Virus record (IMG/VR): IMGVR_UViG_3300038701_001228
Span: 1-55,502 of that record
Reading direction: 5' to 3' (one strand)
Source: a virus
DNA length: 55,502 bases
The notes beneath the pieces were generated by a model. It was not told the origin of the DNA. It was given only the letters and a program-made list of their open reading frames with translations, and searched no databases. Position numbers and translations under genes: made by a program. Below, in pieces: positions 26,975 to 38,070 of the stretch (positions are counted from its first letter, which is position 1; each line of letters starts with the position of its first letter).

Positions 26975-29900
26975 ATGGCAGAGGCAGGTCTTCGGTTCGC
27001 CAGTGGGCGTATGCAATCTATGGGACTGGGCCTGCCTTCCGACCCGCGTTTATCGTTCGACCCGAACATGGCTGGTATCGGGACCGATCAGCTGGCACCT
27101 ACAGCAGCTGACACAGCTGTGATGGGGCAGCCAGCGCCGCAGACGTCGCAGTTTTCCATGCCCGCAGAAATGCGCCCGCCGTCTGCGTCTCGCCGCATTC
27201 GGGAGCAAAGCGCAGCAGGGCCGTCCGCCGCTGCGCCCAGCGTGCTCTATAGCCCGTCGCTTGGCCGGTTCTCGGTTGGCGGTGTTGAGTTCGGACGGGA
27301 CGAGTACGATGTTGCACTGCAATCTCCCCAGCTCCTCAACCGCCCTAACCAGCCGCAAACCCCCGCGGGGGACTGGCAATCTGTCGACGCGACCCAGTAC
27401 AGTCAGTATCTCCAATCCATCGGCGAAGGCCGCGGTTTCCTCGGCAACGTGGGCATGGGTTTCCGCGACGTAGGCGAAGGCGTTGTGGGCGGTGTCGGGC
27501 GCGGTCTCCAGATGCTGGGGGCCGAAGGTGCTGGTCAGGCGCTGGTAGATGTCGGTGAGTTCCTCGGCCCGACTGCCGCCGACGAGGCGCGGGACGCGGC
27601 CATCCGTGAGCGGCAGGGGCTGCTCGGCCAGATCGGTACCGCCGCGGCGCGCTCGATCCCCACGCTAGGTCTCGCCATTGCAGGTGGTGTCGGAGGTGGT
27701 GCCCTTGCCGCCGGTGGTCTTCGCGCGGCAGCCGCGGGCGGGGCCGCGGTCCGGGCCGGTCAGCTGACCGGTGTATCTGCAACGATCTTCCCGATGGAGG
27801 TCCAGTCCTCCTACACCGCGGCGCAGCAGGGCGGCTATGACGTCGAGGACCCCGAGGTCCAGTCGGACATCTGGGCGACGGCGGCGACCAAGACACTGGC
27901 CCAGACCCTGCCCGAGGCGTTCCTCGCCGGGGCCTTCAGCCGCGCCTTCGGCAACGCAGTCCGTGACGCCAGCCGCCGCACGATCCTCAACACGGCTGGT
28001 CCCATCGTGGGTGTCGGCTCCGCCGAAGCTGCCGCAGAGACCTTCGCCACGCTGGCTGACCGGGTGATGTTTGACCCCGAGCTGCGGGCGGAGTTCAACG
28101 AGCGCGACTGGGCCGCGCTGGCCCCGCTGATCGTCGACAAGTATGGCGAGGAGGGCCTCGTCGCCGCTGGCGCAGGCTTCCTGCTGGGCGGTGGCTTCCG
28201 CGCTGCCGTCATGCCGTTCGAGGGTGGGCGCGCACCGGCCACCGACGAGACACCACCGGGCGAAGCACCGCCTCCGCAGCGCGACCTCACGGGCACCGGC
28301 GAGACCGACGTGCTGCAGGGCGGCGAGGTCGCGGGGCCGCCGAGTGCAGAGCAGTACGCCGAGCAGCAGGCTCAGCTCGACGCGCTGGGTATCCCAGAGG
28401 TGCAGCCGGAGGCTCTCCCCACCATGGAGGCAGGGCTGCGCCTGCCTGACCAGCCCATCCTCGACCCGCTCGGACCTCGCGTCGGGGAGCTCAATGCAGA
28501 GGAGCAGGACCTCGCCAACCGCTGGGCTGCACGCACCCAGCCGCCGCTGGAACTTGGGCGTGAAGCGCGGACAGACCTCGGCCCGCTTGCGCTCCCGGCC
28601 CCCGCCTCCGGTGGGACTATCATCCCGCAGGTTCCGCTTCCGCTTGGTACGCCGCTGCTACCAACCCTGCAGGCTGCACCTCAGTTCCGTACCGATACGC
28701 TCCTTCCTCTGCTACCCCAGCAGCGTGCTGAACCCGGTCAGGTGGAGATGTTCACCCCGGATGAGATGGGTGTCGGCCCAGCCACACAGGCCCGCCTCAC
28801 AGGACAGCAACTTGCTGGTGCTCGTCGTCCGCTGACGCGGGATACTGATTTCCTTCCACCGGTTTTTGTCCCTGATCCACAGCTCAACCTACCACTTTCG
28901 CGCCCTGTGCAACCCGGTGAGGGACCAGCTACTGGAACACCTATGGCCGAGCAGCTCAACCGGCTGCTCCAGCAGGTACGGGCCCAAGCCGAAGCGCAGA
29001 AGGCGCAAGAGGCCGAGGCGGCGACCCGCGCAGCGCAGGAGGCCGAGCAGCGTGCGCAGCGTGAGGACCAGCTTCTTCGCTCGCTGGAGGAACAGCAGCA
29101 GCTTGAGGAGGACACCAACATCCTCGGCGAGGAGCTGGTCGGTGGGAACTTCGCCATCCTCGGGCAAGCAGCCCGGGCAGAATGGGATGCGGCAGTCGCC
29201 GCGCTGGACCCAGCAGTGCGCGCAGAACTCACCAGCCTCGGCCCCGGTGACCTACCCACGACCCTTGCGGGCAACCAAGCACAGGCTGAGCTGGCGCGGC
29301 TGGGGACCGAGCTGCGCAGGCGGACGAGCAACAAGCTGCGGCGGCAGGCGGCGGAGCCGCCGACGGTCATCCCGACCGAGACTCCCGCCACGGGCGTGCA
29401 GGTCAGCGGCGTGGATGAGGCCATCGCCAATGGTATCGGTACGATCACCGTGACCGACAACGGTAAGCCGGTGCCCTTCAAGAACTTTGCCCTGAGTGTC
29501 GATGGAAATCGTGCAGAAGTGGGCATGGTCGAGCGCCCCCTACGGGCGCGGCGTGGTATCGGGCGCGAAGCCTACGTTGCTCTCGGCGAGGCGCTCGCTG
29601 CTCGGGGCATCACACTGCAGTCGAGTGAAACCCTGCAGGGTCCGGGTAGAAAGCTCTGGGAGCGCCTCACGATGGAGGGTAGAGCCCGGCGGAACCAGAG
29701 CACAAAGCGGTTTGAGTTTGTCGCAGGAGAGCCTGACACAACCCCACCCGCCGGGGGTGGGCGTACTACACCACAGCAAGGAGCAGCAAAACGCCGCGAG
29801 CGCCGGAAAAAAGCCGCTGCCGACCTCAAGTCGAAGGGAGAACCCGATGCCGTTCAAGAGCAAGGCCCAGCGGAGGGCGCTGTACGCCAAGAACCCGAGA

Positions 29901-32900
29901 CTAGCGAGGGAGTTCCAGTCGAAGACACCCAAGGGCAAGAAGCTGCCCGAGCGCGTGTCGAAGAAACCCAAGCGGAAGAAGCCGTAACGCCGACGTCGCC
30001 GCCCGAGCCTGCACCTGAACCCGCGATCACGCGAGGCGACCGCGCGCCGCGCGACATGCCGCCGAACACCGCATGGGATCAGTATGTCGCCCCCTTTCTC
30101 CCTGTGGAGTTCGGCGCGCGGAACCTCGGCGCGCTTCAGAAAAAGTGGTCCGACGCGGTTAAGGCCGGGCGTGGCAACTACGACGCAGCGCGCAGAATCT
30201 TGGCGGATTCGCCCACCTACAACGTGCTCGAGGCGCAGGAGCTCTACAACACCAGTGCCGACCCGACGGTCCGGGACGATGCGCTGAGCGTCATGCTGGA
30301 GGTCGCCTTCGCCGGCGAATCCACTGGGAACCCGTCCGCGGCGCTGGGCAAAAAGACCCCGGCCCGCTTCGCGCAGGATTTCCTCAACGAGTTGAGCTGG
30401 GCACGGGCTGATCGGGAGACCCTGCTGGAGTTCGCCACACTCGACAGCATCGCCGAGGAGCGCACCGCAGAGAAACCCACGGCGCAGATGCGCGCGCTGA
30501 ACGAGCTGCTCGAGGCCACGGGCGTCCTGAACACCGCCGAGAACGTGGACGGCGACACCACCTCGAACCCTGCGGCAGAGCTCACCGAGGAGATCGTCGA
30601 GTACAACAAGAACCCGCACACCCCCGAGGGGTGGGAGCAAAATCGCCTGCGCGAGCGGGTGCGGAACTTCACCGCCTACGCCCGGGAGAACCCGGAGGCA
30701 TGGGGCTCACTCGTGGAGGGCACGACGCCCCTCTACCAGTACCTCAAGAGCGGGTATGTGAACCTGCGTGCCGGGCGCATCACGCCCGATGCCAACGCGA
30801 CGGACCCCCGCACACAGGCCCGGGTGACCGAGGGTGGCAGCACCGAGGCTGGTGGCGCGCTGACCGGCGGCTTCGCCCCGCGCACTGGTGCAGTCAGGGG
30901 TGGGTACCAAGGGAAGTACAGCCGCGTCGATTACAACGACATCTCCAACGCGCTGGATGCCAACGGTAAACCCCTCACCGGCCCCATGCCGGTGGGCAAG
31001 CAGAAGATGGTCATCAAGACGTTCCTCAAGCGGCTGCGCAATGCGCCGCGCGTCTACGACTTCAAGGATCAGGCCGACCTGCGCCGGAAGAACCCCGAGC
31101 TTTACCGCCGCGCCGCGGCAGCGCGCCCCGAAGGCGACTTCGACACGACCAATGCGGCTGGTTACTCCTTCGGCGACGGCGAGGTCATCGTCTTCACCGA
31201 CCGGATCGCCAACGACACACACCTCAAGTTCGTGCTGGCACACGAGACCTTCGGCCACTACGGCCTGCGGGGCGTGCTGCCCGCCGCCCAGTTCGACAGC
31301 CTCATGGAGGGGCTGTACGACACCACCCCGTCGATCCAGCGGTCGGTCGATGCGGCCATGATGGCCAACCCGGAGCTTGGCAAGGCCGAGGCAGTGGAGG
31401 AATACCTCTCCGACTTCGCTGCTGCGCTCGACAGCAGCATCGTGCTGCGGGTGTGGAAGGCCATCAAGAACGCCCTCAACCGGCTGGGGGTCACGTTCGG
31501 CGACGACTCGGTCCGCTACCTGCTCGACCAGTCGCGGCGCTATGCCCGTAGCCCCCTCCAAGGGTTCCCGATGGACCTCAACGGGGTCGCGCAGCGCGCG
31601 TACGACGTGGAGACGGGGGCAGCAGCGCCCGGTAGGTACAGTTCGACAGGTGACTTCTTCAAAGACCAGCGGTCGCTCGACGAGTACGCCCGCATGGGGC
31701 TTCCGGTACCGCGGAGCTTCCAAGAGGGGCTGGACGCCATGGGCGGCCAGTGGAAGAACTTCGGCGACGGGTGGCGTGGGTTCAAATCCACCTTCCTCAG
31801 CCTGAACAACTTCGATTCGCGCACCAACCCGGGCCTCAAGCGGTTGCACGATGTTCTGCAGGAAGCCGTTACCATCGCCATGTCGGTGCGCAACACGCTG
31901 AACGAGACCATGCGCCCGGCGCTGAACCGCGGCGTCCTTGGCTTCGGCGGGATGAGCAACACCGAGTACGACCAAGCCAACAACCTGCTCCATCACGCGC
32001 GTATCCGGGCGATCATGCGCCTTCGCGACGACCCGGTCACAAGCCGGGAGCCGCTGGTCGTTTTCGACGAGGCTGAAGGACAGTTCAAGCGCACCGATGA
32101 GGTCAAGCGGCTGGATGATCTGCACCGCCTGAAGTTTGAGGACGCGCGCGATGGCTTCAAGTACGTGTTCACCAACACCGATGCCGATGGCAATGTCGTG
32201 AGCACCGAGACCATCCGGGTGCCGGGGATCGACGGACTGACCAAAGGCAGCCGGGTGTGGCTGGCCTATGAGGCCGCGCGCAAGGCGTACATCGACACCG
32301 AGCTGAGGCTCCTGACGGCGCAGCTGTCGGCGGGCCGGGTCCGCGAGTCCACCGCACTGAAGGAAATCGGCAGCGTGGTGCCCGACGGCACGCTCACCAC
32401 CTCGGAGCGGGCGCTCATGCGCATTGCCATCCGCCGGTACCAAGAGCTGTACGAGGCTGGGTCGTCGACCAACGCCGAGGGGGCCATCGTCTATCTGGAC
32501 CAGTCGATGCAGACGGCCAAGGAGTTCGCTAAGGCGTTCAACATGGCAGTGATCGCCAACGAGGACGCGGCGACCGACACCGAGGCGCAAGCGCGGAACA
32601 ACGCGGTCAAGCAGTTCTTCGACCAAGCTGTTGCTGATGACGTCGTCGCCCAGATCGAGGCGTTCAAGCGGCGGGCTAACTTCGCCGATGACCGGTTCGT
32701 CGTGCAGAACAAGATCATCGGCCTGCACACGCAGGCCATGCAGGAGAACGGGGCCAGCGACTTCGCACGGAACTCCATCGTCGGACAGTACTCGCCCATC
32801 GTGCGCACCGGCGACTTCGAGATGCGGCTGGTAGCCAAGGACGCCCGCACCGGGCGGGTCGTCTCGCTCGATGGCGGCTACAAGGACGGCCTGCTGTACT

Positions 32901-35224
32901 CCCAGTTCGACTCCCGCGCTGAGGCGCTGGTCTTCGCCAAGACGGTACGCTCGGCGTTCGGCACCAAATCCTACACGGTCAAGGCCCGGAACAACGACGG
33001 GCAGATGGTGGACACCGAGGTGGTGTTTGAGCCCGTGGTGGACCGTGTTCTCGTCGAAGCCGCCAACCCGCTCGGGGTAAACCTCAACGAGTTTGTGGCA
33101 GGTCTGAACTTCTTCGACATCAACCTCCCACCGGCCAAGCGGGAGGAGGTGATCGTGGCCATGACGGCGCAGGACGCCGCCGCGCGCCGCCGCCTGCAGG
33201 CCGGTCTCAACCCGGGTGACGCCCGGGACGCCATCTCGGGTATCGCGCAGCACATCGACGGTCGCGCCAGCACCATCGCCAAGGTCCAGACCCGCCCGCA
33301 CATCGACGAGCTGATGAACCTCCGGCTGCGGGAGTCGAACGCGCTGTGGTCTGGTGACGCGGAGCGGGTCGAGGAGCTGCGCGCTCGGTACGAGGCGGCT
33401 GCCGCCGACCCGAACGCTCGTCCCAAGACGGTCGAGGTCGCCAAGCGCGAGTACGAAGAAGCCTTGATGATGTACAACAACACGCGGCCCGAGGAAGGGG
33501 ATTCGCGCAAGAACGAGGCGCTGAACAAGGCGGCGCGCACGCTGTCTTTCCTCGACAAGAACGCATCGGTCAACGAATCTGACTTTGAAGGGTCGGGGCT
33601 GATCTCGGCGTGGCGCTCCTACACCAGTTTGATCCAGCTGGGTGGTTCCATCGCCACCGGTCTGCTCAACCCGATCAGCGTCTACACCAACGGCGTGCCT
33701 TATCTCGCGTCCTACAACGCCAAGACGGCCTTCGGCGGAGGCTTCGGCGCGGGCCGGGCGCTCACCGAGGTCCAGCGGGCCTTCGCGCAGGTGGGTATCC
33801 CGGGGATGAAGAACCTGCAGGGCATGAACACCGCCGAGTTCTGGGATGGCCCGGGCGGTGTGACCACGGACCCTGCTCTGCAGAAGAAGTACGGTGTGAC
33901 CAAGCGCGAAGCCCAGATGATCGCCCGCGAAATCCGCGAAGGACGCATGATCCCGGCCCAGTCCAACGCGCTGGTGGGTACCTCTCGCGGGCGCACGGCG
34001 CGCGGCGCGGTCGGCAAGGGCATCGACCTGTGGATGGCACCGTTCAACCTGACCGAGCAGGCATCGCGCAGGGCGTTTGGTCTCGCGTCCTTCCGGCTCG
34101 AGTATGCCCGCCAGATGCAGGCGGTGGACCCGACGCTGGAACCCACCTCGCCCGAGTTCGCCGTTGCTGAGCAGGCCGCATACGACCGCGCTGTGGAGTT
34201 CGCGGGCAAGGCCATGGACACGGCGCTCGGGGATTACTCGGTGCTCAACCGCCCGGCGTTCTTCCGCTCCGGCATCGCCAGTATGCTCTACATGTACAAG
34301 GTCTTCCCGACGACCTCGATCCAGATGTTCAACAACCTGAGCTTCAACGGCAAGATGGGTATGCTGGCTGCCCTGTGGTTCCTCGGCGGCATCGCCGCCT
34401 TCCCGTTCGCTGAGGATTTGGAGGACCTGACCGACACGCTCATGCAGAAGGCCGGCGTGGGCGAAGGTAGCGTCCGGGCTTGGGCTGCCCAGCGGCTCAA
34501 CGAAATCTCGCCCGGCCTGACCCCGGCAATCCTGAAGGGCGTCATGGGCAACATCCTGCCCGGCGACATCGCAGGGCGCGTGTCGCTTAGCGTGATCCCG
34601 GGAACGGAAATCCTGCTGGCTGGTGCGAACACCACCCGGGCGCTGGAGGAGATCGCTGGGCCGATGCCGTCGGCCCTTCTCGGCACGATGCAGTTCGCAT
34701 CCGATCTGGTGCGCGCGCCATTCTCCACGACCGTGACCATGGAGCGGGTGTTCCGGGAGGCACCTGTGACCGGTATGCGCATGGCTGCGGATGCCTATGC
34801 CTACGCCCAGTCGGGCGGGATCGTTGACCGCCGCGGGTACATCGTAGCCTCGGACGTGACGACCGGCGAGCTGGTGATGCGCCTCATGGGCTTCTACCCG
34901 CGGCGGGCGGCGGAGACCTTCGGTAACGTGCGGGTCATCCAGCGTATGGCGAACTACCGGCGCGAGGCAGCCACCGCCTACCGGCAGGAGTGGGTCTCGG
35001 CGCGCATCCGCAACGACCGCGACCGTATGCGGGAGATCGAGAGGGCTGTGCGGGACTGGAACCAGTACCACCGTGGTGGCCCGCTGGTGATCCAGAACTT
35101 CCGGGAGGGGTCGATCCGGGCCTATCGTGAGGCGATCCGCCCGGCGACGGAGCGCGGGCTGCGCTCGGTGCCGCAAGCCAGCCGGGACCAGCTCACGGCA
35201 ATCGCTGATGCGCTGACCTTCTAA
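26975..35224 (+). CDS. Giant (2749 aa) multidomain virion protein with an HExxH zincin-like motif; probably an ejected polyvalent protein
   Basis: One uninterrupted frame. Gly/Ala-rich hydrophobic N-terminal region, Pro-rich and acidic linkers. A metallopeptidase-like block (VIVFTDRIANDTHLKFVLAHETFGHYGLRG). C-terminal hydrophobic segments (MGMLAALWFLGGIAAFPF). Confidence 0.6.
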   Translation: MAEAGLRFASGRMQSMGLGLPSDPRLSFDPNMAGIGTDQLAPTAADTAVMGQPAPQTSQFSMPAEMRPPSASRRIREQSAAGPSAAAPSVLYSPSLGRFSVGGVEFGRDEYDVALQSPQLLNRPNQPQTPAGDWQSVDATQYSQYLQSIGEGRGFLGNVGMGFRDVGEGVVGGVGRGLQMLGAEGAGQALVDVGEFLGPTAADEARDAAIRERQGLLGQIGTAAARSIPTLGLAIAGGVGGGALAAGGLRAAAAGGAAVRAGQLTGVSATIFPMEVQSSYTAAQQGGYDVEDPEVQSDIWATAATKTLAQTLPEAFLAGAFSRAFGNAVRDASRRTILNTAGPIVGVGSAEAAAETFATLADRVMFDPELRAEFNERDWAALAPLIVDKYGEEGLVAAGAGFLLGGGFRAAVMPFEGGRAPATDETPPGEAPPPQRDLTGTGETDVLQGGEVAGPPSAEQYAEQQAQLDALGIPEVQPEALPTMEAGLRLPDQPILDPLGPRVGELNAEEQDLANRWAARTQPPLELGREARTDLGPLALPAPASGGTIIPQVPLPLGTPLLPTLQAAPQFRTDTLLPLLPQQRAEPGQVEMFTPDEMGVGPATQARLTGQQLAGARRPLTRDTDFLPPVFVPDPQLNLPLSRPVQPGEGPATGTPMAEQLNRLLQQVRAQAEAQKAQEAEAATRAAQEAEQRAQREDQLLRSLEEQQQLEEDTNILGEELVGGNFAILGQAARAEWDAAVAALDPAVRAELTSLGPGDLPTTLAGNQAQAELARLGTELRRRTSNKLRRQAAEPPTVIPTETPATGVQVSGVDEAIANGIGTITVTDNGKPVPFKNFALSVDGNRAEVGMVERPLRARRGIGREAYVALGEALAARGITLQSSETLQGPGRKLWERLTMEGRARRNQSTKRFEFVAGEPDTTPPAGGGRTTPQQGAAKRRERRKKAAADLKSKGEPDAVQEQGPAEGAVRQEPETSEGVPVEDTQGQEAARARVEETQAEEAVTPTSPPEPAPEPAITRGDRAPRDMPPNTAWDQYVAPFLPVEFGARNLGALQKKWSDAVKAGRGNYDAARRILADSPTYNVLEAQELYNTSADPTVRDDALSVMLEVAFAGESTGNPSAALGKKTPARFAQDFLNELSWARADRETLLEFATLDSIAEERTAEKPTAQMRALNELLEATGVLNTAENVDGDTTSNPAAELTEEIVEYNKNPHTPEGWEQNRLRERVRNFTAYARENPEAWGSLVEGTTPLYQYLKSGYVNLRAGRITPDANATDPRTQARVTEGGSTEAGGALTGGFAPRTGAVRGGYQGKYSRVDYNDISNALDANGKPLTGPMPVGKQKMVIKTFLKRLRNAPRVYDFKDQADLRRKNPELYRRAAAARPEGDFDTTNAAGYSFGDGEVIVFTDRIANDTHLKFVLAHETFGHYGLRGVLPAAQFDSLMEGLYDTTPSIQRSVDAAMMANPELGKAEAVEEYLSDFAAALDSSIVLRVWKAIKNALNRLGVTFGDDSVRYLLDQSRRYARSPLQGFPMDLNGVAQRAYDVETGAAAPGRYSSTGDFFKDQRSLDEYARMGLPVPRSFQEGLDAMGGQWKNFGDGWRGFKSTFLSLNNFDSRTNPGLKRLHDVLQEAVTIAMSVRNTLNETMRPALNRGVLGFGGMSNTEYDQANNLLHHARIRAIMRLRDDPVTSREPLVVFDEAEGQFKRTDEVKRLDDLHRLKFEDARDGFKYVFTNTDADGNVVSTETIRVPGIDGLTKGSRVWLAYEAARKAYIDTELRLLTAQLSAGRVRESTALKEIGSVVPDGTLTTSERALMRIAIRRYQELYEAGSSTNAEGAIVYLDQSMQTAKEFAKAFNMAVIANEDAATDTEAQARNNAVKQFFDQAVADDVVAQIEAFKRRANFADDRFVVQNKIIGLHTQAMQENGASDFARNSIVGQYSPIVRTGDFEMRLVAKDARTGRVVSLDGGYKDGLLYSQFDSRAEALVFAKTVRSAFGTKSYTVKARNNDGQMVDTEVVFEPVVDRVLVEAANPLGVNLNEFVAGLNFFDINLPPAKREEVIVAMTAQDAAARRRLQAGLNPGDARDAISGIAQHIDGRASTIAKVQTRPHIDELMNLRLRESNALWSGDAERVEELRARYEAAAADPNARPKTVEVAKREYEEALMMYNNTRPEEGDSRKNEALNKAARTLSFLDKNASVNESDFEGSGLISAWRSYTSLIQLGGSIATGLLNPISVYTNGVPYLASYNAKTAFGGGFGAGRALTEVQRAFAQVGIPGMKNLQGMNTAEFWDGPGGVTTDPALQKKYGVTKREAQMIAREIREGRMIPAQSNALVGTSRGRTARGAVGKGIDLWMAPFNLTEQASRRAFGLASFRLEYARQMQAVDPTLEPTSPEFAVAEQAAYDRAVEFAGKAMDTALGDYSVLNRPAFFRSGIASMLYMYKVFPTTSIQMFNNLSFNGKMGMLAALWFLGGIAAFPFAEDLEDLTDTLMQKAGVGEGSVRAWAAQRLNEISPGLTPAILKGVMGNILPGDIAGRVSLSVIPGTEILLAGANTTRALEEIAGPMPSALLGTMQFASDLVRAPFSTTVTMERVFREAPVTGMRMAADAYAYAQSGGIVDRRGYIVASDVTTGELVMRLMGFYPRRAAETFGNVRVIQRMANYRREAATAYRQEWVSARIRNDRDRMREIERAVRDWNQYHRGGPLVIQNFREGSIRAYREAIRPATERGLRSVPQASRDQLTAIADALTF
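29847..29987 (+). CDS. Embedded 46-aa Lys/Arg-rich ORF in the +1 frame of the giant gene
   Basis: SD AAGGGAG lies 6 nt upstream of ATG 29847. Sequence MPFKSKAQRRALYAKNPRLAREFQSKTPKGKKLPERVSKKPKRKKP. By hand count 42/46 codons end in G/C, versus 21/47 for the giant-gene frame over the same stretch. Confidence 0.5.
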   Translation: MPFKSKAQRRALYAKNPRLAREFQSKTPKGKKLPERVSKKPKRKKP

Positions 35225-38070
35225 CGCTGTAGCTTCACGACGTTCTCTGCCGCCTTGGCCTCTGCCTCTTGCTCCAGCCCCTCGAGGATGGACTTGAGGC
35301 GGGGGTGGCGCAGGTTCACGCCATAGACGTAGCACTGCGGAGGCGAGAGCGGCGTGAGCTTGCCGAGCGAAGCCTTCTTGCTGTTCGGCGTGGCGTCGTA
35401 CCCGTCCAGCGCGATCAGGCTCATGAGCTCCCGTGGGTTCCCGCCGTTCTTGGCGAACCACTGGCGGAAGTGCCGCCGGTCGATCAGCAGCGTCCCGCCC
35501 ATCAGCTTCGTAGAACCCATCTGCCTGTGACCGTCGATCCGCATCCGGATCGGCCCGCGCGGCAGCAGATCGTAGTTCGGCTGCGGGTCCTTACCCTTCT
35601 CGTGGTAGACCAGAACGATGGTGTTCAGGTGCTCGTTGACGTACTCGGCCAGCAGGTCGAAGTCGTCCCGCTGGTTGTCGGCCACGGTCTCGCGCATCTC
35701 ATCGAGCTGGCTCAACGCCCAGTTGATCGCGTCCTCGGGCGAAAAGTCGATGATGCCCCACTCGTATGCCAGCTCCAACGCCAGCGCGACCGTGACAAGC
35801 GCCACCTCCCAGAACCGCTCAACACCTGTGAACCGCTTGCCATACTTCTCGTAGAACTCGTCGAAGGCGTTGGCCAGCATAGCGCGGATGCCCTGCTCAC
35901 CGATCTCCATGAGCCGCTCGACGAACTCGCGCCCGGCGAACCCGTAGTTCTGGGTGAACAGCCGGTGGAGCTTCCGCCCTACGCCAGTGCCCTCGGCGAA
36001 CAGCGGCGAGGGGTCGACCTTCAGCTCGAGCAGGCGGGCCAGCTGCGCATCGGTCTCGTTGCCCATGGAGAGCAGCTTGCCTGAGATCGGCCTGTTGGTG
36101 GACAGGGTGGAGAACAGCGCCCACTCCTTCGGGGCTCTCTCCTCCGCGCTGCGGTTGAGGCGGGCCTTGTCCCGCCCTTGGCTGACCCAGTACAGGTAAT
36201 CACCAACGTCTTTGTCGGACATCTGGGTGGCTTCATCGACCGTCATGGGCAGGTTGCCGTAGAGGCCGAAGCGGTTGAACAGCGAGTTCGCGGTGAACTT
36301 CGACTGGAAGTGCAGCTTCTCTGGATCGCCCCATACCGACTGCTGCATGAGCTGCGCCAGCGACTTGCCGCTACCCGATGGGCCATAGAGCGACACCGTC
36401 ATGCCCTTGAGGCCGGTGAACTGCATGAGGATCGAGGCCAGCCCGATCCCGATGGAGAACTGGTGAGCGAACAGCTTACCCTTGCGGAGGATGCTGGTGC
36501 CGGCCTTCCACGTGGCGTAGCTGCCGCTGGTCGTGAACATGTCACTCCCAGCGCGGTTCACGTGGGTGGCCAGTCGGATCGTGTCCTTCTCGACGGACCC
36601 GTCGTCCTTGCGGCGGTAGAGGTCGTCACCGAGCAGGAAGATCGAGTTGTCCTCCTTCCACCCCATCGTGGAGTAGTGGTTCGTGACGGTCCTGATCTTC
36701 CGCAGCTCGTTCATGTAAGAGCGCATCATGATCTGAAAGTACTCCGTCTGCTTCTTGGTTGCGAGCACGATGCCTTGGTCTGCGATGACGCCCACGAACT
36801 CTCGGTAGGTCCCGTCAGCGAGATAGGCTTGGCGCAGGCTCAGCACCTTCCACCCTACATGGGGGCGGTTCCACATGAATTGCGCCACCTCGTACCCGAG
36901 ATGCTCATCGTACCCGTAGCTCAGCGGGTACATGTCGAAGGGCGCGATCTCGATGTCGGTGTCGTCGATGGTGGCCATGATCCCCTTGGACGTCCGCTTG
37001 AACGGCTTGGGTATCTCGACCTCGGTGACCACCTCCTCGGGCGCGTCCTTGCTCGTATCGACCTCTTGGTACCGCACACCCAGTCGCGCTGGGCTGCCGA
37101 TCTTCCCGGCGAACGGACAGCCCTTGCACCCCACGGGGCGCTCCGCCTCGAACTTGGCGCAGGTCGTCGGCCCGGTGGCCTGCTCGCGCCACTGCTCCAT
37201 CTTCTTGAGCGTGGCGCTCTCGGAGTAACCCGGGTGGTCCTCACTCCAGCGCCGCGCCGTGTCCTCGGGGTCCTCACAGAACGCAGCCACGCCGATCAGG
37301 GCGTACCACAGGGGCTCGGAGACCTTGTCTTGGTTCTCGGTCGCCCACTGGACCTGCTGGCATTTCTGCGCCACGAGAGCGGGGATCGCCGGAGGCATGT
37401 CGCTGTGCGCTGCGAGGTTGTCGAGGAGACCGCTGTTGCGCTTCTTGGCCGGGGCGTTCGTCGGGTTGAAGTAGTAGGCCAGCGCCTTTCGCAGCGCAGC
37501 CACGGTGGTGTCGCCACCGTCAAGCAGCACCTCAACACGTTTGGGCTTGGTCGGGTCCTTGAAGTTGTGCGTCCCAACCGGGCGTAGGACCAGCGAGGCG
37601 TCTGCCGTCTTGGTCACGTCGATGTCGAACTTCTGCCCCTCGGCGGCGTCCTTCATGGCCCGGGCCAGCGGGGTCCACTCGTCACGGTCGAGGTCTCGCT
37701 CGAGCACCCAGTAGGTGTGCAGCCCGTTGCCTGACCGGACGATCAGCGGCTTGGGCAGCTTCATGTCGGTGATGAACTTGCCGAGGGCCTTGAGGCCCTC
37801 CTTCCACGTGGGGAACGGCTTGTCTTCGCCGCAATCCACGTCGATGGTGATGACCTTGGTCGCCTGCACGTTCACGTTTCGGCGACTGCTACTGTCCTTG
37901 AAGGTCGAGATAGCGAAGTATGCGTCCTGCCCACGCTGGTCCAGTTGCTGTGCCGTTTCCACCAGATCAGCGATGTCGCTGAAGAACCGGTTTCTCTTAC
38001 CGGTCAGTGCAAACCCACAGTATGTCCCTTCGGTCGGTAGGACGCGCTGGAGGAAGTCCAACGTATCCAT
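35221..38070 (-). CDS. Bifunctional primase-polymerase / SF3 (D5-like) helicase
   Basis: 949 aa. N-terminal prim-pol style block (ITIDVDCGE...SGNGLHTYWVL). C-terminal P-loop (LYGPSGSGKS) in a D5/SF3-helicase-like context. Confidence 0.75.
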   Translation of the reverse strand: MDTLDFLQRVLPTEGTYCGFALTGKRNRFFSDIADLVETAQQLDQRGQDAYFAISTFKDSSSRRNVNVQATKVITIDVDCGEDKPFPTWKEGLKALGKFITDMKLPKPLIVRSGNGLHTYWVLERDLDRDEWTPLARAMKDAAEGQKFDIDVTKTADASLVLRPVGTHNFKDPTKPKRVEVLLDGGDTTVAALRKALAYYFNPTNAPAKKRNSGLLDNLAAHSDMPPAIPALVAQKCQQVQWATENQDKVSEPLWYALIGVAAFCEDPEDTARRWSEDHPGYSESATLKKMEQWREQATGPTTCAKFEAERPVGCKGCPFAGKIGSPARLGVRYQEVDTSKDAPEEVVTEVEIPKPFKRTSKGIMATIDDTDIEIAPFDMYPLSYGYDEHLGYEVAQFMWNRPHVGWKVLSLRQAYLADGTYREFVGVIADQGIVLATKKQTEYFQIMMRSYMNELRKIRTVTNHYSTMGWKEDNSIFLLGDDLYRRKDDGSVEKDTIRLATHVNRAGSDMFTTSGSYATWKAGTSILRKGKLFAHQFSIGIGLASILMQFTGLKGMTVSLYGPSGSGKSLAQLMQQSVWGDPEKLHFQSKFTANSLFNRFGLYGNLPMTVDEATQMSDKDVGDYLYWVSQGRDKARLNRSAEERAPKEWALFSTLSTNRPISGKLLSMGNETDAQLARLLELKVDPSPLFAEGTGVGRKLHRLFTQNYGFAGREFVERLMEIGEQGIRAMLANAFDEFYEKYGKRFTGVERFWEVALVTVALALELAYEWGIIDFSPEDAINWALSQLDEMRETVADNQRDDFDLLAEYVNEHLNTIVLVYHEKGKDPQPNYDLLPRGPIRMRIDGHRQMGSTKLMGGTLLIDRRHFRQWFAKNGGNPRELMSLIALDGYDATPNSKKASLGKLTPLSPPQCYVYGVNLRHPRLKSILEGLEQEAEAKAAENVVKLQR

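What the first reader, a model, noticed from the sequence alone, without database searches (positions are those of the whole stretch)
29820..29990. Overprinted 46-aa basic ORF inside an acidic linker of the giant virion gene
A strong SD (AAGGGAG, 6-nt spacer) precedes ATG 29847 in the +1 frame of the 2749-aa gene. It opens MPFKSKAQRRALYAKNPRLAREFQSKTPKGKKLPERVSKKPKRKKP followed by a stop.

By my hand count, 42 of its 46 codons end in G or C, which is the bias of genuine genes in this genome. The giant-gene frame over the same nucleotides has only 21 of 47, and reads as a low-complexity acidic linker (DAVQEQGPAEGAVRQEPETSEGVPVEDTQGQEAARARVEETQAEE). The codon-bias signal therefore follows the embedded frame, yet the long frame stays open.

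From memory, the N-terminal MPxKSKAQ motif resembles small DUF3008-like proteins of marine phages and bacteria; this needs an HMM check. The alternatives are a true overlapping gene or a captured small gene whose host frame stayed open.
Basis: partly seen in the sequence, partly recalled or inferred. Interest (0 to 1): 0.72.

Follow-up and report, generated by a model that had tools for sequence, protein, structure and literature searches.

The report
Conserved small gene hidden inside giant gene
A 46-residue, very basic protein gene sits out of frame inside the giant internal-virion-protein gene of this phage. The same hidden arrangement is kept in a whole group of related uncultured phages, so it is a real overlapping gene that routine annotation misses.

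Summary
AAGGGAG lies at 29834-29840, followed by a 6-nt spacer, ATG 29847 and TAA 29985-29987, in the +1 frame of the 2749-aa ORF 26975..35224. GC3 is 42/46 in the small frame and 21/46 in the giant frame.

The ORF is not a composition artefact. It is a full-length member of a large family of about 45-aa phage proteins (MPFKSKAQRR...TPKGKKLPE plus a Lys-rich tail). It has 169 close homologues, at least 538 viral contigs encode a relative, and a profile search found 3590 clusters. Most homologues are free-standing genes.

In at least 13 distinct giant-gene lineages (GC 43-63%) the small ORF lies in the same +1 frame inside a 2200-2900-codon ORF. All 9 loci fetched through the giant protein's N-terminal domain alone also carry it.

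Substitutions in the overlap follow the small frame (differences at codon positions 1/2/3 = 0.21/0.13/0.42; pN/pS 0.28, against 2.05 in the giant frame). The giant frame is closed in 40 of 42 free-standing homologues, so both frames are maintained.

The ORF is not a Pfam DUF3008 member and shows only a distant resemblance at both ends. Function and expression remain untested. I rate it a new variant of a known kind (embedded phage genes such as Rz1).

The parts
29834..29840 (+). Shine-Dalgarno-like AAGGGAG, 6 nt before the ATG. In the giant frame it is read as part of K-G-E.
   Evidence: The same kind of SD and spacing precedes other genes of the window. An SD-like AAAGGAG/AAGGGAG/GGAGGA element is clear in 10 of 13 distinct embedded lineages, weaker in 2 (L011, L084) and poor in L007.
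29847..29987 (+). Embedded gene: 46 codons plus TAA, +1 frame relative to the giant gene. It encodes a basic (pI 11.8) protein predicted to form two short helices.
   Evidence: There are 169 homologues with E <= 0.01, the best at 9e-14 and 80% identity. It keeps all invariant and nearly invariant family columns. AF2 model pLDDT is 83, with helices at 6-15 and 17-26. Purifying selection follows this frame.
26975..35224 (+). Host gene: 2749-aa giant internal-virion or polyvalent-type protein, the last gene of the structural block.
   Evidence: The C-terminus hits phrog_11358 (E 7.5e-28). It is about 24% identical to F116/H66-type 'PLxRFG domain-containing', 'structural' or 'DarB-like' proteins. 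Hardies et al. (PMC4819975) class H66 gp60, the giant protein of that F116 group, as an IVP-D (T7 gp16) homologue. The ORF is continuous in all relatives.
29846..29989 (+). Giant-frame reading of the same bases (aa 958-1005): the acidic low-complexity linker DAVQEQGPAEGAV...EETQAEEAV, pI 4.1.
   Evidence: Giant-frame pN/pS is 2.05 and variation is highest at giant-frame codon position 1. The frame is kept open although it is closed in 40 of 42 free-standing homologues.
29717..30020 (+). Wider stretch in which giant-frame GC3 falls to about 0.5. It includes an upstream basic flank (aa about 920-957) shared with L029 in the giant frame.
   Evidence: (WIN aa 920-1018 against L029 aa 896-990, 50% identity).
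26975..28955 (+). Conserved N-terminal region of the giant protein (aa 1-660), used as an independent probe for relatives.
   Evidence: 41-77% identity to L009, L011, L020, L029 and L032. The scan with alignment A2 returned 9 loci, all with the embedded ORF.
30911..35221 (+). Conserved C-terminal region of the giant protein (aa about 1313-2749).
   Evidence: 31-38% identity to the group-A relatives. It hits phrog_11358 and phrog_21376.

Best explanation
29847..29987 is a genuine protein-coding gene that lies wholly inside the giant internal-virion-protein gene, in its +1 frame.

Origin (inferred). The gene belongs to an old, widespread family of about 45-aa basic phage proteins that are normally free-standing. 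In an ancestor of this group of podovirus-like phages it came to lie within the variable, disordered middle of the giant gene. The giant reading frame runs across it as an acidic linker. The shift of Lys codons AAG into Glu codons GAA makes this almost automatic.

What is shown. Since then both readings have been kept. The amino-acid sequence of the small protein is under purifying selection. The giant frame is kept free of stop codons, but its residues there drift freely.

Expression (inferred from sequence signals only). The small protein is most likely made by independent internal initiation at its own SD and ATG on the giant gene's mRNA.

Function (speculative). The protein has two short helices followed by a Lys/Arg tail. 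The module is almost always at the extreme N-terminus of proteins, and in one case it is fused in frame to the N-terminus of a >2000-aa polyvalent protein. This suggests a nucleic-acid-binding or virion-associated partner of giant ejected proteins.
For: 1. Homology. There are 169 proteins with E <= 0.01, the best at 9e-14 and 80% identity, all 40-79 aa. The window's copy keeps every invariant column of a 50-sequence alignment. At least 538 viral contigs encode a relative. A profile search gave 3590 clusters at E <= 1e-3, with the module almost always at residues 1-40.

2. Free-standing state elsewhere. In myovirus-like contigs it is a separate 46-aa gene in a run of tiny genes upstream of the sheath gene.

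3. Conserved embedding. The ORF is in the same +1 frame inside 2212-2915-codon ORFs in the complete cases, and inside truncated giant ORFs in L007 and L061. The loci are L009, L011-13, L014, L020, L029, L032, L041/42, L061, L070, L084, L085 and L007, with GC 0.43-0.63. Their giant proteins are only 27-38% identical at the C-terminus or barely alignable. All 9 loci fetched with the giant N-terminal domain alone contain the ORF.

4. Start signals. The start is ATG in 11 of 13 distinct lineages, GTG in one and ACG in one. SD-like elements are clear in 10, weaker in 2 and poor in 1. The SD context matches that of other genes of the window.

5. Selection. Across 12 embedded sequences, pairwise differences at small-frame positions 1/2/3 are 0.209/0.126/0.420. 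pN/pS is 0.28 in the small frame and 2.05 in the giant frame. Within group A, variable columns number 11/6/26 (chi-square p = 5e-4). Amino-acid identity is 0.86 for the small protein, 0.60 for the giant frame in the overlap, and 0.65 for the best-conserved giant domain. That domain shows the normal pattern of most change at position 3.

6. The giant frame is actively kept open. The equivalent frame is open in only 2 of 42 distinct free-standing homologues, and in 0 of 34 with GC < 0.5.

7. Reproducibility. A second public assembly of the phage (origin of its reads unknown) is identical over 13.2 kb.
Against: - There is no expression evidence of any kind.
- One lineage (L011-13, L094, L096) has ACG in place of ATG, a weaker SD and a displaced stop. 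The gene can therefore be lost, or it is read in some other way.
- pN/pS estimates in overlapping frames are biased. The sequences are not independent, and only 37 codons could be compared.
- The module could have spread among giant genes by recombination rather than by descent. That would exaggerate apparent conservation, although not the codon-position pattern.
- No known function, fold or solved structure matches.
- Low giant-frame GC3 also occurs at about 28790-28945 without any embedded ORF.
Confidence: 0.85

Rival explanations
1. Relic of capture. The small gene was swallowed by the giant ORF and is no longer expressed. Its sequence persists only because the giant frame must stay open.
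For: The L011-13, L094 and L096 lineage has ACG for ATG, a weakened SD and a shifted stop while the core is still intact. No expression data exist. Gene callers do not call the small ORF.
Against: A relic would accumulate changes without regard to the small frame. Instead, changes concentrate at small-frame third positions (11/6/26 variable columns; pN/pS 0.28 against 2.05). The small protein is more conserved (0.86) than the best giant domain (0.65). Start and stop are retained in 12 of 13 distinct lineages, and an SD-like element in most of them, although the giant genes have diverged to about 30% identity.
Confidence: 0.07
2. Recoding product rather than a separate gene. In one version, ribosomes start at 29847 and slip -1 into the giant frame, giving 'small domain + C-terminal 1750 aa', like the in-frame fusion seen in L059. 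In the other, they slip +1 from the giant frame into the small frame, giving a truncated giant protein with a basic tail.
For: L059 carries the module in frame at the N-terminus of a >=2039-aa polyvalent-type protein. The module is nearly always N-terminal in longer proteins. The ACG lineage keeps the +1 frame open upstream.
Against: No in-frame X XXY YYZ heptamer exists in the window's ORF, and none is conserved in position among the 13 embedded ORFs. The +1 frame upstream is open for very different lengths, from 20 to 117 codons. A canonical SD and ATG at normal spacing explains the data more simply.
Confidence: 0.05
3. Chance ORF or composition artefact. An E/A/G/P/Q-rich linker gives G/C-rich first positions, which mimic high GC3 in the +1 frame. 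Alternatively, an assembly error has joined two genes.
For: High giant-frame position-1 G/C also occurs elsewhere (27455-27491 and 28937-28976) with normal GC3. Another low-GC3 stretch has no alternative ORF.
Against: Homology at E about 1e-13 to hundreds of real small genes. The arrangement is conserved in low-GC genomes, where 2200-2800-codon ORFs and embedded ORFs cannot be chance. A second public assembly (origin of its reads unknown) is identical. The giant ORF is continuous in all relatives.
Confidence: 0.01

Closest known systems
Rz/Rz1 spanin genes of phage lambda (Rz1 wholly embedded in the +1 frame of Rz); from established knowledge
   Same: A complete small ORF with its own SD and start lies entirely inside a larger gene of the same strand, in the +1 frame. 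The arrangement is conserved among related phages, and in other phages the two genes are separate.
   Different: Rz1 is a Pro-rich outer-membrane lipoprotein with a signal peptide and a lipobox Cys. The protein here has no Cys and no hydrophobic leader, and has pI 11.8. The host gene is a giant internal-virion protein, not a lysis gene, and no functional pairing is demonstrated.
Classical overprinted genes of small phages (phiX174 E in D, B in A, K; MS2 L); from established knowledge and the reviews listed (PMC8227390, PMC6195259)
   Same: Two proteins are read from one stretch of DNA in different frames, and one of the two readings is disordered or low-complexity.
   Different: In those cases the embedded ORF is the evolutionary newcomer, born de novo. 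Here the embedded ORF is the old, widespread one, and the newcomer reading is the linker of the large gene. The genome here is 55 kb and is not under extreme size pressure.
phrog_1375 (PHROGs v4, unknown function)
   Same: The window's peptide and other family members match it over residues 3-45 (E 1.4e-4 to 6e-5).
   Different: The match is weak and the PHROG has no annotated function. The family defined here is far larger than cultured-phage collections suggest, and no close homologue was found in 50,697 phage records.
Pfam DUF3008 (PF11450), about 61-aa bacterial proteins
   Same: Both share the N-terminal MPxKSKAQ(R/Q)(R/K)A motif and the C-terminal EF..KGK(KL)PE(H/R)V motif. hhalign aligns 40 columns at 48% consensus identity.
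   Different: DUF3008 has about 24 extra residues in the middle. No Pfam hit was found for any of 50 members. hhalign probability is only 21-30%. DUF3008 proteins are encoded on bacterial genomes and MAG contigs rather than phages. No paper in the library mentions it.
Giant internal virion / polyvalent proteins (T7 gp16/IVP-D family as extended by Hardies et al., PMC4819975; DarB-like and 'PLxRFG' proteins of F116-like phages)
   Same: The host gene sits at the end of the structural block. Its C-terminal domain matches phrog_11358 and F116/H66-type proteins, and its middle is mosaic.
   Different: No embedded out-of-frame gene has been described in these proteins, to my knowledge and in the searched library. 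Cultured F116-type relatives lack the small ORF.

Membership tests
MPFKSKAQRR...TPKGKKLPE small-protein family (defined here; overlaps phrog_1375) | N-terminal M-P-[FM]-x-S-x-[AS]-Q-[RK] motif at residue 1 | tested here: met
   M1, P2, S5 and Q8 are invariant. F3, A7, R9 and R10 are >= 90% conserved in 50 sequences. All are present in the window's peptide.
MPFKSKAQRR...TPKGKKLPE small-protein family (defined here; overlaps phrog_1375) | Central P-x-[LV]-A-x-E-[FW] helix and the T-P-K-G-K-K-L-P-E motif | tested here: met
   P17, A20, T27, P28, L33 and P34 are invariant. E22, K29, G30, K31, K32 and E35 are >= 90% conserved. All are present.
MPFKSKAQRR...TPKGKKLPE small-protein family (defined here; overlaps phrog_1375) | Significant sequence similarity to family members, and an HMM match to phrog_1375 | tested here: met
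   phmmer E down to 9e-14 at 80% identity. phrog_1375 E = 1.4e-4.
Pfam DUF3008 (PF11450) | HMM match at or above Pfam's gathering score | tested here: not met
   No PF11450 hit at E <= 10 for the peptide, nor at E <= 1 for any of 50 family members.
Pfam DUF3008 (PF11450) | Profile-profile homology to an alignment of bona fide PF11450 proteins | tested here: inconclusive
   hhalign of A1 against A3 gives probability 21-30% and P 2e-4 to 6e-4. Both termini align across a 24-residue gap.
Out-of-frame embedded (overlapping) phage gene, Rz1-type arrangement | Complete ORF, from start to stop, inside a larger same-strand gene in another frame | tested here: met
   29847..29987 lies within 26975..35224 at offset +1.
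Out-of-frame embedded (overlapping) phage gene, Rz1-type arrangement | Own translation-initiation signals | tested here: met
   AAGGGAG, 6 nt, ATG. The signals are conserved in relatives and typical of the window's genes.
Out-of-frame embedded (overlapping) phage gene, Rz1-type arrangement | Comparative evidence of selection on the embedded frame | tested here: met
   Position-3-biased variation and pN/pS of 0.28 in the embedded frame against 2.05 in the host frame.
Out-of-frame embedded (overlapping) phage gene, Rz1-type arrangement | Demonstrated translation of the embedded product | not testable with these tools
   Needs ribosome profiling, mass spectrometry or genetics.
Rz1 / o-spanin | Signal peptide with lipobox Cys; Pro-rich mature lipoprotein | tested here: not met
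   No Cys, no hydrophobic N-terminal segment, 18 K+R of 46 residues.
Programmed ribosomal frameshift site | Conserved slippery heptamer (X XXY YYZ) in the upstream frame at a fixed position | tested here: not met
   None in the window's ORF, and none conserved in position among 13 embedded ORFs.
Giant internal-virion / polyvalent protein (phrog_11358 C-terminal domain; F116/H66 'PLxRFG' type) | C-terminal domain homology | tested here: met
   phrog_11358 E 7.5e-28 over aa 2221-2708. tblastn gives 23-26% identity over 80% of aa 2101-2749 to H66, F116 and others. The group-B and L084 giants hit the same PHROG.
Giant internal-virion / polyvalent protein (phrog_11358 C-terminal domain; F116/H66 'PLxRFG' type) | Presence in the virion and ejection into the host | not testable with these tools
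   Inferred only from gene position after phrog_511 'internal virion protein' and from Hardies et al..

The most novel reading that the evidence does not exclude
The small basic protein is a dedicated partner of giant ejected or polyvalent virion proteins. It could be a packaging adaptor, a chaperone, or a co-injected nucleic-acid-binding factor. On this reading its gene has been locked inside the partner's own coding sequence, which guarantees co-inheritance and co-expression despite the rampant mosaic recombination of the giant gene's middle region. The in-frame N-terminal fusion in L059 would then be the 'Rosetta-stone' form of the same partnership. The overlap would have arisen by engulfment of an older gene by a growing ORF, the reverse of classical overprinting.
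Probability: 0.25. Interest if true: 0.8.

Novelty: new variant of a known kind. Interest (0 to 1): 0.66.

Why it matters
1. Hidden genes. A real, strongly conserved gene is invisible to standard annotation. The pipeline calls only a 2688-aa product here, and the 46-aa sequence is absent from a 15-billion-protein collection.

2. Reverse overprinting. This is a clean natural case in which the embedded gene is the old one and the long gene's linker is the new reading. It bears on how overlaps arise and why new readings tend to be disordered.

3. An uncharacterised module. A very large N-terminal module (3590 clusters) becomes linked to giant internal-virion or polyvalent proteins in two ways: out-of-frame embedding and in-frame fusion. 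That gives a concrete lead to its function.

4. A ready experiment. ATG to ACG at 29848 is silent in the giant frame (GAT to GAC, Asp to Asp). This is the very change found in one natural lineage, and it allows a clean knockout.

Tried and rejected
- DUF3008 membership: rejected by hmmscan. Only a weak resemblance at both ends remains.
- Fold and structure matches: Foldseek against PDB found nothing. Against BFVD it found only uncharacterised family members. The PDB sequence search gave only noise.
- Pfam and PHROG scans of longer proteins that carry the module: only DUF5661, a ddrB-ParB domain and unknown PHROGs.
- Close relatives of the window's own giant middle region: blastn and tblastn against cultured phages found none. 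Peptide-pattern scans of viral and metagenome contigs found only a shared domain (aa 806-920) in L006, L008 and P0121, with a different linker and no small ORF. The relatives were found only by searching with the small protein and then with the N-terminal domain.
- The small protein in cultured phages: no close homologue. The only hits were weak N-terminal-motif matches in Streptomyces phages and a few others.
- Frameshift hypothesis: no conserved slippery site.
- Internal promoter or terminator near the ORF: none found by consensus scan.
- Rhizobium phage RHph_TM3_14A, the nearest portal match at 35%: no giant gene in the region inspected, so it was uninformative.
- Second low-GC3 stretch at about 28790-28945: no alternative-frame ORF.
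- Long antisense ORF 30707..35461: not conserved in length in relatives and scales with GC, so probably a shadow ORF.
- Codon-position comparison of the upstream flank, WIN against L029: the alignment was too gapped to be informative.

Full report

Yes. The window has AAGGGAG at 29834-29840, a 6-nt spacer, ATG at 29847 and TAA at 29985-29987. The peptide is MPFKSKAQRRALYAKNPRLAREFQSKTPKGKKLPERVSKKPKRKKP. The ORF lies +1 relative to the 2749-aa ORF 26975..35224.

G/C at its codon positions 1/2/3 is 22/21/42 of 46. The giant frame's GC3 over the same bases is about 0.46, against 0.81 gene-wide.

Among 10,525 46-codon windows in 25 likely genes of the window, only five combine in-frame GC3 <= 0.48 with +1-frame GC3 >= 0.91. 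All five sit at 29834-29846.

Two caveats apply to the codon-bias argument:
- An E/A/G/P/Q-rich linker automatically has G/C-rich first positions.
- A second low-GC3 stretch of the giant frame (about 28790-28945) has no alternative ORF.

Composition alone would therefore not have settled the matter.

**2. What is the small ORF?**

It is a full-length member of a large, tightly conserved family.
- A search of 5.8 billion proteins gave 169 hits with E <= 0.01, the best at 9e-14 and 80% identity. All were 40-79 aa.
- In a 50-sequence alignment the window's copy keeps every invariant column (M1 P2 S5 Q8 P17 A20 T27 P28 L33 P34) and every nearly invariant column.
- A pattern scan found at least 538 viral contigs that encode a relative.
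- A profile search of 1.84 billion cluster representatives found 3590 clusters at E <= 1e-3 and 667 at E <= 1e-10. The module is almost always at residues 1-40 of proteins of 44-540 aa.

Elsewhere the gene is usually free-standing. In myovirus-like contigs it is a separate 46-aa gene in a run of tiny genes upstream of the tail-sheath gene.

AlphaFold2 predicts two short helices (6-15 and 17-26) followed by an extended basic tail, with pLDDT 83. No solved structure or annotated fold matches. The peptide has pI 11.8 and no Cys.

**3. The DUF3008 lead**

Pfam gives no PF11450 hit for the peptide or for any of 50 family members. I retrieved genuine PF11450 proteins, aligned 25 of them and compared the two profiles.

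hhalign gives 21-30% probability. It matches MPxKSKAQ(R/Q)(R/K)A at the N-terminus and EF..KGK..PE.V at the C-terminus, across a 24-residue gap. This is a possible distant relationship, not membership. The nearest curated family is phrog_1375, of unknown function (E 1.4e-4).

**4. The host gene**

The window looks like a podovirus-type genome.
- The portal is 26-35% identical to those of Rhizobium RHph_TM3_14A-type, HMO-2011-type, CRP and HTVC103P-type phages.
- A phrog_511 'internal virion protein' gene lies upstream, and tail-fibre and primase/helicase genes are nearby.

The giant protein has no Pfam hit. Its C-terminus matches phrog_11358 (E 7.5e-28). It is also about 24% identical to the 'PLxRFG domain-containing', 'structural' or 'DarB-like' giant proteins of F116/H66-like phages. 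Hardies et al. class the giant protein of that group, H66 gp60, as an IVP-D (T7 gp16) homologue and note that IVPs host extra domains (PMC4819975).

**5. The decisive comparative result**

Searching with the giant gene's middle region found almost nothing. The only hits were a shared domain (aa 806-920) in L006, L008 and P0121, followed by a different linker with no small ORF.

Searching viral contigs with the small protein recovered many loci in which the ORF lies inside a very long same-strand ORF, always at relative frame +1:

| Group | Loci | Giant ORF (codons) |
|---|---|---|
| High GC (0.59-0.63) | L009, L011-13, L014, L020, L029, L032 | 2461-2915 |
| Low GC (0.43-0.45) | L041/42, L061 (cut), L070, L084, L085 | 2212-2803 |
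| GC 0.50 | L007 (cut) | 1043, truncated at the locus end |

These giant proteins are homologous to the window's at the N-terminus (41-77% identity) and the C-terminus (31-38%). Others are barely alignable and share only the phrog_11358 C-terminal domain.

As an independent test I scanned viral contigs with the giant N-terminal domain alone. All 9 loci returned carry the embedded ORF.

The start codon is ATG in 11 of 13 distinct lineages, GTG in one and ACG in one. An SD-like AAAGGAG, AAGGGAG or GGAGGA element precedes the start. It is clear in 10 lineages, weaker in 2 and poor in 1. It resembles the SDs of other genes in the window.

**6. Which frame is selected?**

Across 12 embedded sequences and 37 core codons:
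- Mean pairwise differences at small-frame positions 1/2/3 are 0.209/0.126/0.420.
- Nei-Gojobori pN/pS is 0.162/0.573 (ratio 0.28) in the small frame.
- It is 0.291/0.142 (ratio 2.05) in the giant frame.

Within the window's own group:
- Variable columns number 11/6/26 (chi-square p = 5e-4).
- The conserved N-terminal domain of the same giant genes shows the normal pattern in the giant frame (0.262/0.224/0.552).
- Amino-acid identity is 0.86 for the small protein, 0.60 for the giant frame over the overlap, and 0.65 for the best-conserved giant domain.

The frame equivalent to the giant frame is open in only 2 of 42 distinct free-standing homologues, and in 0 of 34 with GC < 0.5. Its openness in the embedded loci is therefore maintained rather than incidental.

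Both readings are kept. The small one is kept for its sequence. The giant one is kept for continuity.

**7. Mechanism**

- Shown: a conserved, intact ORF with initiation signals, purifying selection in its frame, and a maintained open giant frame.
- Inferred: translation by independent internal initiation on the giant gene's late mRNA.
- Inferred: origin by engulfment or insertion of a pre-existing small gene into the disordered, mosaic middle of the giant gene. The family is far broader than the embedding. The giant-frame reading is an acidic low-complexity stretch (pI 4.1) that follows from reading Lys AAG codons as Glu GAA.
- Speculative: function as a nucleic-acid-binding or virion-associated partner of giant ejected proteins. 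This is suggested by the basic tail, by the module's strict N-terminal position, and by L059. In L059 the module is fused in frame to the N-terminus of a >=2039-aa polyvalent-type protein with a ddrB-ParB domain.

**8. Rivals**

- A silent relic is contradicted by the codon-position pattern and by the retention of start and stop in 12 of 13 lineages, with an SD-like element in most. However, the ACG lineage (four contigs of one population) shows that the gene can decay or be read otherwise.
- Recoding by frameshifting lacks any conserved slippery site, and the window's ORF has none.
- Chance and assembly artefact are excluded by homology, by the low-GC examples, and by an identical second public assembly, though I do not know whether its reads are independent of the window's.

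**9. Novelty**

Embedded out-of-frame genes are known in phages (Rz1 in Rz; the phiX174 overprinted genes). This one differs in three ways:
- The embedded gene is the ancient partner, and the long gene's linker is the derived reading.
- The host is a giant IVP-D or polyvalent-type virion gene.
- The arrangement is conserved across a wide, uncultured clade while being invisible to annotation. The pipeline calls a single 2688-aa product, and neither exact sequence is in the 15-billion-protein collection.

Literature searches found no description of it, and none of DUF3008.

**10. Limits**

- No expression or functional data exist.
- pN/pS in overlapping frames is biased.
- The sequences are phylogenetically dependent, and only 37 codons are comparable.
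- Only the best 80 of at least 538 viral loci were examined.
- Modular transfer and vertical descent of the embedded module could not be distinguished.

Noticed in passing
window 28754-28980 (minimum about 28799-28945): A second stretch of the giant gene has very low in-frame GC3 (0.35-0.48), at giant aa about 606-657 (TGQQLAGARRPLTRDTDFLPPVFVPDPQLNLPLSRPVQPGEGPATGTP). No open alternative frame spans it and it has no obvious homologue. It may be a foreign or recently acquired linker segment.
   Followed up: partly
L059 6001-12117 (IMGVR_UViG_3300045241_000217, GC 0.69): The same 40-aa module (MPFRSEAQRRYLFAKEPEVAREFAAATPKGARLPEHV) is fused in frame to the N-terminus of a >=2039-aa polyvalent-type protein. 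That protein has repeated GPFIGPKGGKWADAQHT motifs and a ddrB-ParB domain (E 3e-13).
   Followed up: partly
L011 3607-3765; also L012, L013, L094, L096: One lineage, seen in four contigs from related samples plus L096, has ACG instead of ATG, a weakened SD (AGAGGAC) and a displaced stop that extends the tail. The 35-residue core is still intact. ACG is silent in the giant frame (GAC, Asp).
   Followed up: partly
window 29390-29735 (giant aa about 806-920); L006 144-488; L008 4705-5049; P0121: A domain ending ...KRFEF is 60-74% identical in otherwise unrelated giant ORFs (a marine IMG/VR contig and a TARA scaffold). In those ORFs it is followed by a different linker. This is direct evidence of domain shuffling right next to the embedded gene.
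   Followed up: partly
window 30707-35461, minus strand: A 1584-aa ORF lies antisense to the giant gene. The longest antisense frames in relatives are much shorter (146-787 codons) and scale with GC, so it is probably a compositional shadow ORF.
   Followed up: partly
window 26975 versus about 27158: The public gene call for this contig gives the giant product as 2688 aa, starting 61 codons downstream of the first ATG. No clear SD precedes ATG 26975 (acaaaacttggggttctaatATG), so the true start is uncertain.
   Followed up: no
window about 31220-31250 (giant aa about 1420-1428, VLAHETFGHYGLRG): An HExxxH-like motif lies in the conserved region of the giant protein. It may be a metallopeptidase-like domain, as in polyvalent proteins. 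There was no Pfam hit.
   Followed up: no
L100-L134 (genome-contig scan): Relatives of the small protein (41-80% identity) occur in MAGs of many phyla, including Anaerolinea, Planctomycetota, Acidobacteriota, Gemmatimonadota and Patescibacteria. Some are on Mb-sized contigs, so there may be prophage or cellular copies.
   Followed up: no
L054, L057, L058, L065, L066, L076, L081, L083 (6001 to about 6470): A recurrent 153-167-aa protein combines the module with a conserved C-terminal domain (AAEELRLKIPxRTFHGxDAA...DPLDRxTxWGxPSNLxxGDTAxRLxDMGQxT). It has no Pfam or PHROG annotation.
   Followed up: partly
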